A DNA stretch of 64,000 bases, taken from the sequence record NZ_CP013691.1. One strand, 5' to 3'. The stretch is from a plasmid. A program made the position numbers. Position 1 is the first letter of the stretch. Every line of letters starts with the position of its first letter. Positions 1 through 12,000 of this stretch are shown piece by piece.

Positions 1-3000
1 TACAAATTTATACAATTTTATAATTACTTACAAATATATAACAAATTAAAACTATATAAATTAATTAATTAATTCGAAATACAAAGAAAATCAAACAAAC
101 AAAACATATAAAACATTAATAACCAACAGTTTAATTTTGAATAATTTATATAACAAATTTAATTGTTTTTAATTATATAAATTATTATATTTGCTCATAA
201 CCTTTTAATAAAATACAATATATGAATACCACAAAATTATATGAGTTTAATGTCATTTGTAAGAAAAATGAAGAATATCAAGCCATTGATATAGTATGCA
301 ATTCTAGCGATGCTTCATATCAAATATTAAAGAGAATATTCGATAAAGTATCAATTAATATTAAAGAATATTTCTTCGCTCTCTATGTATCCAATTCAAA
401 CCAAATAATTGGATACAGTATGCTTTCGATGGGTGGAATGGCAGGAACGGTAGTAGATATTAGAATTCTTTTTAGAGAAGCGATATTAGCAAATGCAACG
501 GCAATAATCATCGCCCATAATCACCCAAGTGGAAAACTAACACCTAGTGAAGCTGACAAAAAACTCACTCAAAAAATAAAAGATGCTAGTCTGTTTTTAG
601 ACATCAAACTATTAGACCATCTTATCATCTCAGAATACGGCTATTTCAGCTTCTTAGATGAAGCTTTCCTATAAAATTATAGTACAGACTGCTTATAATC
701 TAATAATGGTTTTAAGCAGTCTTTAAAAGACTTCTTTTCCTTATGAAAAGAAAAATAATTTATCTAACAAATTTAATTCTATATAATATAACAATTTAAT
801 ATAAAACCCTTTTAATAAATATCAAGATGAAAAAAGCATACATTTTAGGCGTATTCTTTCTCTGTCTGTATTTAGGTTTTGCCATATACAAAACCAATAA
901 TAGAGAAGGAATACTCCCCAAGCCTCCCACACCAGCTGAAGCAGCAGTAAAACTGCAAAAGGTAAAAGCGGAGAAAGAAGCCAAATGGCGGAGAAAGAGT
1001 AAACTACAAGATTTAAAAATAGAAGTAGAACAAAATCCAACACTGAAAATAGTTACTTCAATACTTGGTGGTCTAATCCTATTTATTTTACTTGTAAAAT
1101 ATTTTAAAGATCCTAAATTCAAATTTAGTGGCTTGTTCTTTAGCACAGCACTATCAATACTGATACTTTATATAATGTATCGAATATTAATCCACCTCAC
1201 AGCACTATCGCTTGTGGACTACATGTAATAAAATAACCTTTTAATAAAATACAATATGGAATCGAATAATAACAAGCGTGCAGTATATCTCAGAAAGATA
1301 ACTGACGATGTTTTAGCGATAATTGACAAACACAGAGAAGAGAAATCAATTAAAACAAAAACAGAAGCAGTAATTGACATAGTAAAGAAATACCCTATGC
1401 AACAAATCGTACTCGAAAAGCAACGAAAAGAAATTCAAGCTCTCCAATATGAACTTGATATACTACGTGAGCACTTCGAATCATTAGAAAATATAATTGC
1501 CTATATCAAATCAAAATAACAACCTGGTCTACAACAAATCAATTACAAAGAGTCTAGAAATAGGCTCTTTTTCTTTTCGAAAGAACCCTTAATCCTAGTC
1601 AATGAATAATTTTTATTTTGTTGATTACAACTTTCAACAATGCTTTTGAAATCACAAACAATTAAAGCTGTATTGGATTTATCTTCTAATTATTACTACA
1701 TTAAAAACTAAAATAATTATTGCGATTAAAAGAATAGCAAAAACTCCTCCTTTTGCTGCTGTCGGATATTGTCTAGTTCTAGTTGCTTGCATATATTTTG
1801 AGATAGTAATGTAAACTAAGAAAACCAACCCCAAAAAAAAGAAAAAGTTTATTAATGAATATATATTAATGTTTTCGAATATTTTCATGATAAATAAATA
1901 TTAAGGTTTATAATTGTTGTAGTTATCTCTTCATAATGATTATGATAATTGAAGTTATTAGCTTATCAAATATAATACCATAATCTACTCTATACAATAA
2001 AATTACAATTCAATAATTTATCTAACAAATTATTTAAAAAAGGGCGTCAAAACTATAATCTACACTGAGTAATGAAAAGCAACAAATTAAAGATTTAGCA
2101 GCTGTACTGTAGCCGATTTTTGTATACAAACCTCATTATTAGCTAAACAAAAAAAGAGTCCATTGCTGGACTCTCTTCTACTCTTCTACTGTTCTAATAC
2201 ATCAAATATTGTCATTTGGAGAGGAATTTTCTTTTTGGTTTTTGAAATAATTGGATTATTTTCTTTTTTCTCTTCCCTTTCTTTCATTTTCTCAACAAAT
2301 TTTGGGTCATTGGATGCTACTGAAGTTGTAAAATTAACTTTGGTAAATTCCAATTTATCATTGGAATAATACTCTTTAGCCAATCCTATTAATTCAACTT
2401 CATTGATAAATCCCCTTTTCATTTTTTTTACTTCAGAAGCTATGTATTGACAACACTCCTTGATTGTCTTTTTTTCCTTTTGAAAGATAACGGCAAATTC
2501 TTGGTTGTTATCTGCAAGATTGCACAATACCTGTTCTATTGCTAATTCTGTTGGGTTCATATTGTATTTTATTAAAGGTTAGTTATTTGTTGTATTTGAG
2601 GAATACAGTTTAAAAATAGTTTTTCTATCTCTTGATGGTAGATACTTTTGCAATTACCGTATCCTCTTTGCTGAATAATTGTATTAGTGTATAAATCAAA
2701 TTCTATTGTTTCAGTAGGTTTAGAATTGACCTTAGCCGAGAACAGTAATCGACTTTCTTTTTTATAATAGCCATTGACATAAACACAGTGATTTAAAGTA
2801 TTTCCTTCCATTTTAACTTCTTCAATGCTCTTTAGCGGTTCAATGCTAATATTCTTATTTTGAAAATGAAGAGGAAAATATTTTTTTAACCTATCAATAT
2901 ATATCACATTTTCAGCTATCGTTTTATTGATTGTTGCTCCCTCCATTCCCTCTTTTTCTAATTTTTCATATCGTTTCAACATATATTTATTATGTTCTAA

Positions 3001-9000: not shown

Positions 9001-12000
9001 ACTAAATAATATCTATGTGAAAACAGCAAAGACTCCCAATACTTTAATACATACAAATGACAGTGTAAATTTTGAAATTTACAATACTACCAATATACAA
9101 GAGTTGAAAGAACTTTTTAAAAGTAAAAGTATATTATATCCGGGAACACCAAAATATGCTAATACAACTCTTTTAACACCTCAAGATCTAGCAGCATTCC
9201 ATACAAAACTAAAAAACAGTTATAACCTTGATCAAGCTCCAATTCATAAATTCTCTCAAACTAAGGACTTCGAACTTCTACAATTTACTAAACCAGGTTA
9301 TATAAAAGACGCACTTTGTCTAGGAGTTAAATTTCAAATACCAGTTGAAGATGATTTTATCACAGTATCATATAATGCAGAAGATTTATTTACAATAGAA
9401 TCTGAACAAAAAGGAAAATTAACCAATGAAGTTTTATACAATTCCCTTGAGCAAAAAATAGATAATATAATTGCTGGAGATTATTTAGAACAACAACACT
9501 CCAATCGAAGAAAAATATAAAACAAAAAGAGTCTAGAAATGGACTCTTTTTTTATAGTTGAATTTTATTTAAATAATTTATATAAAAAATTTAATTATAA
9601 CAATTAAAATAAATTTATCATTTAAAAAGGGCGTCAAAACTATAATTTACACTGAGTAATGAAAAGCAACAAATTAAAGATTTAACAGCTGTGCTGAAGC
9701 AATTATTGTATACAAAAGAAGAGTCTAAATAGACTCTTCTTCGTTAATACCCTCTTGTAATTGATACATACTAGGAAAAAAGGAATTTCCTTTTTTGATT
9801 AACTGGCAAGCATCATTATTGTTAATCAAACATAACCACTTTTCTAAATCCTCAGGATTATTAGATTCTCCTAATGCCCATACTTCGCCTTCTTCAGTTT
9901 CATACATGCAGAAATAACAAAAAATATCCTCATCGCATTCCTTCTTTTCTCTTAAATTATCTTCATCAGTCAAACCAATGACAAAAGCTTCGGTATTATT
10001 TATCTCAAATCTTAAACAATTAAAATAAGATAAATCACCTACAATATTATATTTACTCTTTGCCTTTTCAGTCCATTTGTCATAAGCTTTAGTCACTTTT
10101 TTAATTTGCTTTTTCTTCATCTTGATATCGTTCAGAATTATCCCGCTGTTCCCCGATTTGATATTTATTAAAAGGTTATAAGCAAATATAGTGATTTATA
10201 TAATTATATACAATTAAATTTGTTATATAAATTATTTAAATTAATAATCAAATTTCGAATCAATACTTTCCTCATCATTCAAAGAGGTGTCAAGTTCTTG
10301 CATAAGTATTTTAATTTCTTCTAAAGACATTACGTTATTATCTTCTACTGGGGTGTTATAGTATTCTACTAATTTAGCTTTACTTTTTTCCTTTCTTTTG
10401 AATCTTACTTTCCGCTGAGCAGCAAAAATTTTTCTATCAGATTTATATCGATCATAGATTTCTTTTTGTTCATCTTTAAAAGCATCATTCAAATCCTTTA
10501 TATCACTTTTTAACCCATTGTCAGGGGCAATGAATTCACTTTCTTTTTTTATTTTGGACCACAAATCTAATTGAGAATTAGATAGAGTACGCTCTATAAA
10601 TAAAACATATGATTCTTTAATCTTTTTCTCAGTTTCATTTTTTTCAACTGGAAGCATATCTGTTCTATCATTGAGAACTTTCAAATCTCTTTTCACATAT
10701 TCATTTTTTACTTTAAAAACAGCTTCTTGTCTTTTAGACAAGCCAAGCTCTTTATGTTCTAGAATCTCCTCTATATCAGTAAAAACAACCTCTATACTAT
10801 CTGATGGGATTACTATTGGCTTTTTAATTCCTTTATCTTGGCCATAAATAAAAGTTGACAAACTAAACAATAGGATTGGTAGAATTTTTTTCTTCATAAT
10901 TATATAAAATCTATTTTTTTATTAGTAGTTAATATGAGTTCTTTAGAATAGTTTTCCCCTTTCATATTCTTACAAACCACAGTTCCAGCAGTATTATTTT
11001 TTACCAGATTCAAGACATCTTTTACTGTAATATCATAGCCTTTCATTTGCTTATATATTTGAAATTTACATACTGTATAATTTGTACAGGCGTACTTATT
11101 GTTAGATAGTGTTATTACCCCATCCCCACAAGAAGGACAAGTACAGATGTTATAATCAACATTAATTTGAAAAGTATTATCATCCAGGTATAATCTCCCG
11201 CCATAAAAAAAATTACTATCTCTGTTCTTTAAATTAGAGATAAACCTACTTTTTTCACCGGTCAATAATTTTATAGCTAAAGTATCATCAACCAAAATGC
11301 CTTTAGTTTCTTTAAAAATTGCTATAGGACACTGTAAACTAGGATCCATCATCCTATCATTATTTTCACAAAAATATCCATTGAGGTTCTTTTTTATTTT
11401 TCCATTACACAATGGACAGCAACTTCCTTTTAAAATATCTACAAAATCAAATTTACTTGAGTGGATATCAAAAAAGACATACCCGGAAAACATTTCATTC
11501 TTGGAATTTAAAAGAGAAGGGAAAAAAACACCATTCTCACCGCTTTTTAATACCTCGCAAAGCAGTTCTTTATCAAAAATAATTCCATACCATGATTTCC
11601 AAATATATAGGTCACAAACAAAACCATTTATTGTACTACTATTACTACAATGAAAGGCGTGTTCATTTTCCATGAGAAAAGCACTATTACATTTAGGGCA
11701 TTTTAAATTAATCATTCATCTAAATTTTATATAAAACTAGGAAAAATAAAATCCGAAAAAAAATAAAACTAGGAAAAATAAATCCTATGTTTTTTCTTTT
11801 CATTAGAAATGGTGTTTACTTTTATTATATTTTCCTTATTATAATGGTGTTTACTAGTGTATCTTTTCCTTATTATGATGGTGTTTACAAGATTATAATT
11901 TTCAGTATAAAAAATACAGAAGGGTTATATAAATTATAACACCTAGATTTTTCTCAAATTAAAATACTTTAATACCTTATTAGTCAGTAGATTAGTTCTG

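What the first reader, a model, noticed from the sequence alone, without database searches (positions are those of the whole stretch)
2037..9716. The iteron 18-mer is embedded in a ~90-bp ultra-conserved module present four times, each heading (or once having headed) a paralogous gene cassette
The module AAAAAGGGCGTCAAAACTATAAT[CT]TACACTGAGTAATGAAAAGCAACAAATTAAAGATTTAGCAGCTGTACTG..TTTTTGTATACAAA occurs at 2037-2130, 6787-6880, 8308-8400 and 9624-9716, each preceded by the AT-rich 45-bp repeat.

Two copies precede paralogous genes (6956..8203 and 8477..9520) whose products are only ~30% identical. The non-coding module is therefore far better conserved than the proteins it precedes, which implies function. 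Candidates are a shared promoter with an operator, a small RNA, or a recombination site. Two copies are orphaned and followed only by terminators, which looks like cassette loss. The box carries a perfect TATAAT.

A protein that recognises the 12-kb iterons would bind all four modules. The paralogs themselves, with a conserved N-terminal ~100 aa, are candidates for that binding protein.
Basis: partly seen in the sequence, partly recalled or inferred. Interest (0 to 1): 0.7.

Follow-up and report, generated by a model that had tools for sequence, protein, structure and literature searches.

The report
Reiterated 94-bp iteron-bearing regulatory module
A Myroides multidrug-resistance conjugative plasmid carries four copies of a discrete 94-bp non-coding module that starts with the plasmid's 17-bp iteron and ends in a 10-bp palindrome; it is most likely a protein-binding control site and recombination hotspot for fast-evolving genes, which is interesting but a variant of known plasmid regulatory repeats.

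Summary
Four same-strand copies of a 93-94-bp module lie at 2037-2130, 6787-6880, 8308-8400 and 9624-9716. The first 54 nt are 94-100% identical, about 30 nt are variable, and a perfect palindrome TTGTATACAA closes each copy. Each module begins with the 17-mer GGCGTCAAAACTATAAT, which also forms the 21-bp-spaced array at 12030-12223. The window is the backbone of Myroides albus plasmid pMA84474, in a RadC/PcfJ/PcfK(AcrIIA9)/orphan-methylase region that I infer to be the establishment or leading region.

The module is not a structured RNA: folds are no better than shuffles, RNAalifold finds 0 pairs, and there is no Rfam hit. It has no hairpin of the ssDNA-promoter or attC type. Its TATAAT is the wrong grammar for Bacteroidota sigma-A, and no TAnnTTTG box lies on the + strand between the upstream AT-rich 20-mer and either paralog start. 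The reverse strand of the box is a perfect -7 element (TAGTTTTG).

The paralogs are acidic orphans with no DNA-binding signal. No homologous module was found outside this plasmid lineage.

Best reading (about 0.4): a composite DNA operator that links these transcription units to the iteron-binding protein. Gene conversion keeps the copies alike, and the repeats promote cassette gain and loss. Function is unproven.

The parts
2037..2130 (+). Module copy m1 (orphan). Box 2043-2059, palindrome 2120-2129. Preceded only by the 20-mer at 2012-2031. Followed by the pcfK terminator at 2152-2177.
6787..6880 (+). Module copy m2. Box 6793-6809, palindrome 6870-6879. It lies 75 nt upstream of the 415-aa paralog gene.
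8308..8400 (+). Module copy m3. Box 8314-8330, about 30 nt of the 3' half replaced, palindrome 8391-8400 retained. It lies 76 nt upstream of the 347-aa paralog gene.
9624..9716 (+). Module copy m4 (orphan). Box 9630-9646, palindrome 9706-9715. It abuts the hairpin at 9716-9741, which is the terminator of minus-strand gene 9725-10120.
12030..12224 (+). Iteron array. The 17-mers start at 12030, 12051, 12072 and 12093 (21-bp spacing) and at 12208. An A-tract and AT-rich stretch (12130-12200) lies between the array and the last copy. A possible degenerate copy sits near 12112.
   Evidence: all five copies are unchanged in the variant plasmid contig L007
6738..6757 (+). AT-rich 20-mer AATAATTTAyATAACAAATT, one of 10 copies: 140, 754, 2012, 4434, 4704, 6738, 8255, 9572, 10236(-) and 12324. 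Each points at a downstream unit. Four head modules, five head genes and one heads a Flavo-1 hit.
6956..8203 (+). Paralog cassette gene 1: 415 aa, pI 4.8, an orphan protein ending in NRRM.
8477..9520 (+). Paralog cassette gene 2: 347 aa, pI 5.1, ending in NRRKI. The N-terminal 93 aa are 40% identical to gene 1.
8207..8234 (.). Bidirectional terminator hairpin AAAAAGAGTCTAGAAATGGACTCTTTTT, identical at 9524-9551. It belongs to a hairpin family also seen at 1547, 2152 and 9716. Together with the 20-mer and the module it forms the roughly 200-bp repeat unit that flanks the cassettes.
   Evidence: (D7, D13, D14)
2048..2055 (-). Perfect Bacteroidota -7 element TAGTTTTG on the reverse strand of the box. 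The same element lies at 6798-6805, 8319-8326, 9635-9642 and in all five array copies. The nearest upstream TTG is 24 nt away, which is non-canonical.
   Evidence: promoter consensus from PMC9723704

Best explanation
The module is a discrete double-stranded-DNA control element, not an RNA gene and not a plain promoter.

Anatomy: its left end is one perfect iteron, GGCGTCAAAACTATAAT with an A5 prefix. Its right end is a perfect 10-bp palindrome, TTGTATACAA. The two centres are 72.5-73.5 bp apart, about 7 helical turns. That spacing is kept even in m3, where the intervening ~30 bp were replaced.

Proposed mechanism (inferred): the plasmid protein that occupies the array at 12.0-12.2 kb also binds the single box in each module. 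That array is either an origin/handcuffing array or a centromere-like/autoregulatory array. A second, dimeric protein binds the palindrome. Together they gate transcription across these intergenic regions. This means the rightward cassette genes, and possibly the leftward sigma-A -7 box embedded in the iteron. Expression would then be high just after the plasmid enters a naive cell and shut down once the binding protein accumulates.

The [terminator hairpin + AT-rich 20-mer + module] unit is also a ~200-bp portable homology. Copies exchange sequence by gene conversion. Unequal recombination between them duplicates or deletes cassettes, which would account for the two paralogs and the two empty slots.

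Shown: the anatomy, copy number, strand bias, conservation gradient, lack of RNA/ssDNA structure and lack of a + strand sigma-A box.
Inferred: protein binding, the direction of regulation and the identity of the binders.
For: - The box is identical to array iterons 1, 3 and 5, and all 9 copies share one orientation.
- The edges are sharp and the length is fixed at 93-94 bp. The palindrome survives in m3 although its flanks are unalignable.
- Conservation gradient across the cassettes (per 40 columns): 38/40 and 33/40 at the AT-rich repeat and module 5' block, falling to about 55% and then 40% in coding sequence.
- m1 is 4.7 kb from m2. It shares no flank with it beyond the 20-mer, yet is 53/54 identical in the 5' block.
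- All five array boxes are unchanged in a variant plasmid whose surrounding region is about 97% identical.
- There is no RNA or ssDNA structure and no Rfam family.
- All 10 AT-rich 20-mers and all 9 boxes are confined to the 14-kb RadC/PcfK(AcrIIA9)/PcfJ/C5-methylase region, next to the putative mob/oriT end.
- Evidence for conversion between copies: the m2-equivalent in variant contig L004 is closer to m1 (54/57) than to the window's own m2 (51/57).
- Precedent: in R388 the partition protein StbA, and ArdK, repress several establishment-region promoters, and R388 promoters overshoot transcriptionally after transfer (PMC3937220).
Against: - No binding protein is identified, and no recognisable Rep, ParB, HTH or RHH protein was found next to the array.
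- The adjacent 271-aa Zn-ribbon protein is a conserved establishment-operon gene in other Bacteroidota plasmids. It usually has no iterons nearby.
- In the only relative examined for this, pFM-G13, all 15 iterons stay at one locus and none is dispersed. Dispersal is therefore not a family trait.
- The 37 conserved nt between the box and the variable zone have no assigned role.
- No independent lineage carries the module. Selection therefore cannot be separated cleanly from concerted evolution.
- There are no transcription data.
Confidence: 0.4

Rival explanations
1. Concerted-evolution relic or recombination substrate only. The module is part of a duplicated intergenic unit, comparable to the promoter-terminator 'PeSL' cassettes of T4-type phages. 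Gene conversion keeps it homogeneous, and its only role is to shuffle, duplicate and delete cassettes. The embedded iteron copy would be historical, for example a promoter region captured from near the origin.
For: - The presumably functionless spacer between terminator and 20-mer is also 100% identical between 8207-8254 and 9524-9571 (D7, 74).
- The terminator hairpins form a repeat family (D13/D14).
- Two empty slots exist.
- There is a conversion signature between m1 and m2 in a variant plasmid.
- PeSL precedent (PMC2839356).
Against: - m1 shares no flank with the others, yet has the same sharp module edges.
- The 5' block is under 2% diverged while the adjacent 30 nt are 13-20% diverged (about 70% in m3). 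Conversion alone does not predict that pattern.
- The palindrome and the module length are retained in m3.
Confidence: 0.2
2. Leftward sigma-A promoter. The reverse strand of every box is a perfect Bacteroidota -7 element (TAGTTTTG), so the conserved 54-nt block would be a promoter firing towards lower coordinates. It would read into genes 1679-1888 and 6334-6651 at m1 and m2. At m3 and m4 it would make ~108-nt AT-rich transcripts ending at the bidirectional terminators 8234-8207 and 9551-9524. It might also interfere with rightward transcription.
For: - The perfect TAnnTTTG is present in 9/9 copies, on the minus strand only.
- By my estimate, about 3% of 16-mers of this composition would contain one.
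- The conserved block has promoter-like length.
- Terminators with good T-runs on the minus strand follow m3 and m4.
Against: - There is no TTG 17-21 nt upstream; the nearest gives a 24-nt spacer (and direct reading).
- The left-hand genes of m1 and m2 already have canonical promoters of their own, at 1997-1967 and 6722-6692.
- Four -7 boxes at 21-bp spacing in the array make no sense as promoters.
- TAnnTTTG is common on this strand, with 36 in 16 kb.
- Uniform conservation of the 'spacer' is not promoter-like.
Confidence: 0.15
3. RNA-level element. The module is transcribed rightward as an unstructured 5' leader of the two paralog mRNAs, and as short RNAs from the orphans. It would act through its sequence, as a binding platform for an RNA-binding protein or through the 8-codon uORF ATGAAAAGCAACAAATTAAAGAyTTAG (MKSNKLKI/T).
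For: - Each module lies downstream of the 20-mer that heads nine other gene or RNA units in the same orientation, including a Flavo-1 hit.
- The bare module is unusually unstructured in m1, m2 and m4 (z +1.6 to +2.2; m3 is 0.0), which would suit a single-stranded binding platform.
- The uORF start is conserved in all copies.
Against: - No canonical + strand promoter lies between the 20-mer and the paralog start codons, and m1 lacks the -33 TTG.
- The uORF stop is lost in m3, giving 20 codons, and its start context (GAGTA-ATG) is not A-rich like the region's other leaders.
- The hairpins after the orphans lack + strand U-tracts.
- There is no antisense partner in the plasmid.
- Identity of the first 17 nt with a DNA iteron is unexplained by an RNA role.
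Confidence: 0.15
4. One reading: the paralogs themselves, through their shared N-terminal ~95 aa, bind the box and autoregulate or act at the iterons.
For: Only positional evidence: two modules head the paralog genes, and the N-terminal domain is the one conserved part of the proteins.
Against: - The N-terminal domains are acidic (pI 4.7-5.5) and the whole proteins have pI 4.8-5.1.
- There are no DNA-binding family or PDB hits.
- The AlphaFold model has pLDDT 35.
- The one distant homologue, P0004, sits 14 nt behind another paralog on a 1.5-kb contig with no module between them.
- Orphan modules and the array have no paralog gene beside them.
Confidence: 0.05
5. Site-specific recombination site of the attC, res or dif type, for the serine recombinase at 14766-15428 or for an integrase.
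For: The layout looks like cassettes, all repeats are direct, and a resolvase gene lies 5 kb away.
Against: - No imperfect-hairpin architecture exists on either strand.
- No integron-type integrase lies beside the cassettes.
- The only dyad is the 10-bp palindrome.
Confidence: 0.05

Closest known systems
Global operator regulons of conjugative plasmids: R388 StbA/ArdK (PMC3937220). RK2 KorB operators and pSM19035 omega heptads are cited from my own knowledge.
   Same: - One short DNA motif is clustered at a maintenance locus and also occurs singly in front of several establishment-region transcription units.
- The predicted outcome is repression once the plasmid is established and a burst of expression after transfer.
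   Different: - Here the motif is embedded in a much longer invariant unit of 94 bp, with a second palindromic site at a fixed 7-turn distance.
- No regulator gene is identified.
- The host is Bacteroidota, with different promoter grammar.
- Binding and repression are untested.
PeSL (promoter-early/stem-loop) regulatory cassettes of T4-type phages (PMC2839356, PMC4122927)
   Same: Reiterated promoter-plus-terminator units flank fast-evolving, mostly orphan ORFs, and recombination between the units drives cassette gain, loss and shuffling.
   Different: - This is a plasmid, not a phage.
- The unit contains an extra 94-bp module with an iteron copy.
- Recombination between copies is only inferred, from the empty slots and one conversion signature. 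No mini-circles were observed.
Iterons of theta-replicating plasmids, with extra-origin iteron copies used for copy-number control or handcuffing (P1 incA, F incC; own knowledge)
   Same: - A 17-bp direct repeat in a 21-bp-phased array lies next to an AT-rich stretch.
- Additional copies of the same repeat lie outside the array, in the same orientation.
   Different: - The extra copies are single, 2.4-10 kb from the array, and each sits inside a larger conserved module next to transcription signals.
- No Rep gene is recognisable.
- Origin function of the array is not shown.
Bacteroidota sigma-A promoter, TTG-N~20-TAnnTTTG (PMC9723704)
   Same: The reverse strand of the box is a perfect -7 element.
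   Different: There is no -33 element at canonical spacing. The + strand, which faces the paralog genes, has no -7 element at all.

Membership tests
Plasmid iteron (Rep-binding origin repeat) | Tandem direct repeats of about 17-22 bp at helical-phase spacing | tested here: met
   The array at 12030-12108 has four copies at exactly 21-bp spacing, with one more at 12208. The four module copies are single, so they do not form an array.
Plasmid iteron (Rep-binding origin repeat) | Adjacent AT-rich unwinding region | tested here: met
   An A9 tract and AT-rich stretch at 12130-12200 lies between iterons 4 and 5. This is a direct reading. It is consistent with an unwinding region but is not a functional test.
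Plasmid iteron (Rep-binding origin repeat) | Neighbouring gene for a recognisable Rep initiator | tested here: not met
   - No Rep family hit for the flanking ORFs or for the other backbone ORFs tested.
- The flanking 271-aa protein belongs to a Zn-ribbon 'topoisomerase C-terminal repeat' family. In other plasmids this family sits in establishment operons without iterons.
Plasmid iteron (Rep-binding origin repeat) | Specific binding by the initiator, and origin activity | not testable with these tools
   Needs EMSA or ChIP and a mini-replicon assay.
Global plasmid operator regulon (StbA/ArdK/KorB/omega type) | The same motif in a clustered master site and in several promoter-proximal sites | tested here: met
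   There are 5 clustered and 4 dispersed copies. Each dispersed copy lies 11-39 nt downstream of a copy of the AT-rich 20-mer; other copies of that 20-mer head genes.
Global plasmid operator regulon (StbA/ArdK/KorB/omega type) | An identified plasmid-encoded repressor that autoregulates | tested here: inconclusive
   No HTH, RHH or ParB hit was found. The 87-aa ORF at 1256-1519 looks RHH-like by eye only.
Bacteroidota sigma-A promoter | -7 box TAnnTTTG on the strand of the downstream gene | tested here: not met
   There is no + strand TAnnTTTG within 2000-2130, 6730-6955, 8250-8476 or 9565-9720. The minus strand has a perfect box in every copy.
Bacteroidota sigma-A promoter | -33 TTG 17-21 nt upstream of the -7 box | tested here: not met
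   For the minus-strand box the nearest TTG gives a 24-nt spacer (plus direct reading).
Structured non-coding RNA / Rfam family | A stable or conserved secondary structure, or a match to a covariance model | tested here: not met
   - Fold z-scores are -1.4 to +2.2 over both strands.
- RNAalifold finds 0 pairs.
- No Rfam hit on the modules at the gathering threshold or at E<=5.
ssDNA promoter (Frpo-like) or integron attC | A long imperfect hairpin in single-stranded DNA | tested here: not met
   DNA folds of 6700-6960 give z = -0.9 and -1.0 on the two strands. No inverted repeat lies within m2.
PeSL-like mobile regulatory cassette | A reiterated composite of promoter element and terminator stem-loop flanking variable ORFs | tested here: met
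   The hairpin family (1547, 2152, 8207, 9524, 9716) plus the AT-rich 20-mer flank the two diverged paralogs. The unit 8197-8314 is 91% identical to 9514-9631.
PeSL-like mobile regulatory cassette | Demonstrated recombination between copies (indels, mini-circles) | tested here: inconclusive
   The evidence is indirect: two empty slots, and a variant m2 that resembles m1. In the one other backbone available, L028, the difference is an insertion into the gene, not a cassette swap.

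The most novel reading that the evidence does not exclude
The 94-bp module is a dedicated 'expression and landing pad' for hypervariable, acidic (possibly DNA-mimic or anti-defence) proteins in the leading region of a Flavobacteriia conjugative plasmid. 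The plasmid's replication or partition hub protein would directly gate their zygotic induction through the embedded iteron, together with a second protein at the phased palindrome. The orphan copies would be empty docking slots through which cassettes are exchanged. That would be a previously undescribed coupling of copy-number sensing, early anti-defence expression and cassette turnover in Bacteroidota plasmids.
Probability: 0.15. Interest if true: 0.65.

Novelty: new variant of a known kind. Interest (0 to 1): 0.4.

Why it matters
Regulation of Bacteroidota conjugative plasmids is almost unstudied, and this backbone carries clinically relevant resistance genes (the sibling record lists blaMYO-1, blaOXA-347, ermF, ereD and sul2). 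The module may tie the replication or partition hub protein to early expression of rapidly diversifying leading-region proteins. If so, it gives a concrete, testable handle on how such plasmids establish in new hosts, in the form of a 17-mer, a 10-bp palindrome and four natural copies. It would also show how the anti-defence repertoire turns over. If the module is only a conversion-homogenised repeat, it still explains the paralog pair and the empty slots.

Tried and rejected
1. Structured RNA: per-copy RNA folds on both strands, RNAalifold, and Rfam at the gathering threshold and at E<=5. Nothing was found.

2. ssDNA hairpin or Frpo-like promoter: DNA folds were not significant.

3. Homologous modules elsewhere:
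- PLSDB in near and distant modes found only the same plasmid.
- GTDB genomes with a 22-mer gave one chance hit inside a coding gene.
- JGI metagenomes with the 18-mer gave 9 single hits. Eight are clearly chance. One is a 25-nt match on a small Rep_1/Mob plasmid.
- IMG/VR gave nothing relevant.

4. Paralog homologues: word-indexed search, a full HMMER profile search of 1.84 billion representatives, and tblastn of PLSDB. These found only near-identical copies and one distant 227-aa relative.

5. Structure prediction of the 415-aa paralog and the 271-aa neighbour gave pLDDT 35 and 30. Both models are unusable, so no fold search was run.

6. The 271-aa protein as Rep. It is preceded by 15 iterons in Myroides pFM-G13. 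In five other plasmids examined it sits inside establishment operons without iterons. The idea was dropped.

7. Antisense partner of the module within the plasmid: none beyond chance 9-15-mers.

8. ECF-type (AAC...CGTC) and sigma-54 readings of the box, checked by eye: no consistent -35 or -24 element across copies.

9. Minus-strand small ORF across the module: broken by the 1-nt indel in m4 and by the divergence of m3.

Full report
**What the window is**

The first 14 kb of the window are essentially identical to Myroides albus P34 plasmid pMA84474, NZ_CP102755.1. The resistance region at 14-39 kb is only 64% covered at 93.5% identity in that record. The window is therefore a sibling plasmid on the same backbone.

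The modules lie among these genes:
- radC
- pcfK, annotated as an AcrIIA9-family Cas9 inhibitor
- pcfJ
- an orphan C5-cytosine methyltransferase
- many small acidic orphan proteins (pI values)

Just left of the window lie parA, a CHC2 primase and a DUF5712/SLT block that looks like the mob operon. From the usual geometry of relaxase operons, I infer that window 1-14 kb is the establishment or leading region. This was not tested.

**Check of the observation**

Four direct copies of a 93-94-bp unit lie on the + strand at the stated coordinates.

Pairwise identities:
- Columns 1-54: 51-54 of 54 in every pair.
- Columns 55-84: 24-26 of 30 among m1, m2 and m4, but only 9-10 of 30 against m3.
- The closing TTGTATACAA is intact in all four.
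- Similarity ends abruptly, with 0-2 of 5 matches beyond the module.

Motif counts:
- The 16-mer GGCGTCAAAACTATAA occurs nine times in 64 kb, always on the + strand, against 0.03 expected. Four copies are in modules and five are at 12030-12223.
- The first four copies of that array are spaced exactly 21 bp apart.
- The palindrome TTGTATACAA occurs only in the modules.

The paralogs share 40% identity over their first 93 residues and nothing significant after that. Cassette-to-cassette DNA identity per 40 columns is 38/40 then 33/40 across the AT-rich repeat and module 5' block. It falls to about 55% in the N-terminal coding part and about 40% in the rest. It returns to 40/40 just downstream of the gene, from the terminator hairpin into the AT-rich spacer.

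Three details need correcting:
- m1 has only the first 20 nt of the AT-rich repeat, 5 nt from the module.
- The hairpins after the orphan copies have their T-runs on the minus strand. They belong to the convergent genes 2186-2560 and 9725-10120 (sequence).
- m3's 3' half is replaced rather than merely diverged, yet its length (93 bp) and its palindrome are kept.

**Wider context of repeats**

The AT-rich 20-mer AATAATTTATATAACAAATT occurs ten times, all within window 140-12343. Each copy points at a downstream unit:
- radC
- a 133-aa gene
- m1
- a Flavo-1 Rfam hit at 4563-4644
- the methylase
- m2, m3 and m4
- the 131-aa gene, on the minus strand
- the 144-aa gene

In four 'standard' copies it is followed by a textbook Bacteroidota promoter, TTG-N20-TAyATTTG (consensus from PMC9723704). 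A conserved leader AACCTTTTAATAAA then precedes the start codon.

In the module copies the slot for the -7 box reads TTTAAAAA and runs straight into the module. The terminator hairpins also form a sequence family (D13/D14). This 14-kb region is therefore built from reiterated regulatory parts. The module is one such part, inserted between the upstream promoter element and the cassette gene.

**What the module is not**

- **Not a structured RNA.** Per-copy folds give z-scores between -1.4 and +2.2. On the + strand, three of the four bare modules fold worse than almost all shuffles and m3 is no better than shuffles. RNAalifold predicts no pairs. Rfam finds nothing on the modules even at E<=5.
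- **Not a single-strand hairpin.** This excludes an Frpo-like promoter and an attC-like site.
- **Not coding.** The only conserved + strand ORF has 8 codons, in a poor start context, and its stop is lost in m3. The minus-strand ORF is broken in m4.
TATAAT is not what Bacteroidota sigma-A reads. No + strand TAnnTTTG exists between the 20-mer and either paralog start codon.

**What it could be**

Three features point to a DNA-level protein-binding unit:
1. The left end is a perfect iteron, including the A-run prefix seen at the isolated fifth iteron.
2. The right end is a perfect palindrome, the classic signature of a dimer site. It is retained in m3 even though its flanks changed.
3. The centre-to-centre distance is 73.5 bp (72.5 in m4), seven helical turns. 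It is preserved although the intervening 30 bp are free to vary.

A variant plasmid from a metagenome has an iteron region about 97% identical, and all five boxes there are unchanged. This is suggestive but not significant. About 2.4 substitutions would be expected by chance, so P is about 0.09.

The same variant's m2-equivalent resembles m1 (54/57) more than the window's own m2 (51/57). That is a signature of gene conversion between copies. Both selection and concerted evolution therefore seem to operate.

One unexpected finding: the reverse complement of the box, ATTATAGTTTTGACGCC, contains a perfect -7 element, TAGTTTTG, in all nine copies. That allows a leftward-promoter reading. However, no -33 TTG lies at the canonical spacing. 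The left-hand genes have canonical promoters of their own. An array of -7 boxes every 21 bp is not promoter-like.

**Who binds?**

The binding protein is unknown.
- The paralogs are acidic, with N-terminal domains of pI 4.7-5.5.
- They lack any family or PDB hit and gave an unusable model.
- They have essentially no homologues in 1.84 billion representative proteins.
- Their single distant relative follows another paralog by 14 nt, with no module between them.
- The 271-aa Zn-ribbon protein next to the array belongs to a family found on 59 other plasmids, mostly Bacteroidota.
- In Myroides pFM-G13 that gene is preceded by fifteen 18-bp iterons, which do not occur elsewhere on that plasmid.
- In pBF9343 and in the Mucilaginibacter, Pedobacter, Sphingobacterium and Phocaeicola plasmids it is an internal gene of an ArdC-like/DUF4099/PH-domain establishment operon, with no iterons. 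It is therefore probably not the initiator.
- No Rep, ParB, HTH or RHH family was detected in the backbone ORFs tested.

**Comparison with known systems**

Functionally, the nearest analogues are plasmid-wide operator regulons. One example is R388, where the partition protein StbA, and ArdK, repress several establishment promoters and the network overshoots after transfer (PMC3937220). RK2 KorB and pSM19035 omega are further examples from my own knowledge.

Architecturally, the repeated terminator-promoter-module unit flanking orphan ORFs resembles the PeSL cassettes that shuffle genes in T4-type phages (PMC2839356).

The module fails the tests for a structured RNA, an attC or Frpo hairpin, and a + strand sigma-A promoter. 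The 12-kb array passes the structural tests for iterons but lacks a recognisable Rep.

**Verdict**

The inference that the non-coding module is functional is reasonable.

My best explanation, at about 0.4, is a composite operator that shares its key site with the iteron array and doubles as a recombination substrate for cassette turnover.

The module exists only in this plasmid lineage in every collection searched. Comparative proof is therefore unavailable, and experiments are needed. Interest is moderate. It is a new variant of known plasmid regulatory-repeat logic, in a poorly studied phylum and on a multidrug-resistance backbone.

Noticed in passing
window 140-12343 (10 sites: 140, 754, 2012, 4434, 4704, 6738, 8255, 9572, 10236-, 12324): The AT-rich 20-mer AATAATTTATATAACAAATT heads ten transcription units, all within the first 12.4 kb. 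In the standard copies it forms one arm of a perfect 14-bp inverted repeat, AATAATTTATATAA-N19-TTATATAAATTATT, that brackets the -33 TTG. This is a candidate operator for a second regulon-wide repressor.
   Followed up: partly
window 199-13825 (10 sites): The leader motif AACCTTTTAATAAA lies 6-45 nt upstream of start codons on both strands. It occurs 10 times against 0.28 expected, and only in this 14-kb region. It may be a shared translation-initiation or regulator-binding signal.
   Followed up: partly
window 4563-4644 (+): A Flavo-1 RNA (RF01705) hit scores 43.5 bits, just above the gathering threshold. It lies 110 nt downstream of a copy of the AT-rich 20-mer, in the intergenic region before the methylase gene.
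   Followed up: no
window 11815-11895: Three ~25-bp direct repeats containing GGTGTTTAC, two of them 34 bp apart, lie between the iteron array and the 271-aa gene. They form a second repeat family in the same 680-bp intergenic region.
   Followed up: no
window 1547-1570, 2152-2177, 8207-8234, 9524-9551, 9716-9741: The terminator hairpins are themselves a sequence family, AAAGAGTCyA...TrGACTCTTT. This suggests that the regulatory parts of this region were copied as units.
   Followed up: partly
window 6956-8203, 8477-9520; P0004 (L003:734-1417): The paralogs and their only distant relative all end in an N-R-R-x tail, and all are acidic (pI 4.8-5.1). Many neighbouring ORFs are also acidic (pI 4.5-4.9), as DNA-mimic anti-restriction proteins are. 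The basic C-terminal tail could be a secretion or translocation signal.
   Followed up: partly
window 1256-1519 (+): An 87-aa basic ORF (pI 8.8) has an N-terminus that reads like a ribbon-helix-helix motif (KRAVYLRKITDDVLAIIDKHREE) followed by a coiled coil. It has no Pfam hit. It is a candidate for one of the unidentified repeat-binding regulators.
   Followed up: partly
L015:3443-3468 (ERZ1023397 contig, 6.7-kb Rep_1/NikA/relaxase plasmid): A single 25-nt match to the module's left end, TTAAAGGGCGTCAAAACTATAATTTA, lies just downstream of the relaxase gene of an unrelated small mobilisable plasmid. This is 7 nt longer than the 18-mer searched. It could be chance, or a shared host or helper-plasmid binding site.
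   Followed up: partly
NZ_CP102755.1 71188-84474 vs 1302-14588; window 14001-39000: - The public record of pMA84474 repeats about 14.6 kb at its ends, which is probably an untrimmed circular overlap. The plasmid would then be about 69.9 kb.
- The window's resistance region differs from that record. It carries four integrase+IS91-like ORF pairs, whereas the record's gene table lists two.
   Followed up: partly
L020:18887-19736 (Myroides odoratimimus pFM-G13): Fifteen copies of an 18-bp iteron, TCGAGATTCCACTACCCA, some in 22-bp tandem arrays, fill the 1.1-kb gap upstream of the homologue of the window's 271-aa Zn-ribbon gene. None occurs elsewhere in the 40.8 of 43.2 kb of that plasmid that was scanned.
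   Followed up: yes
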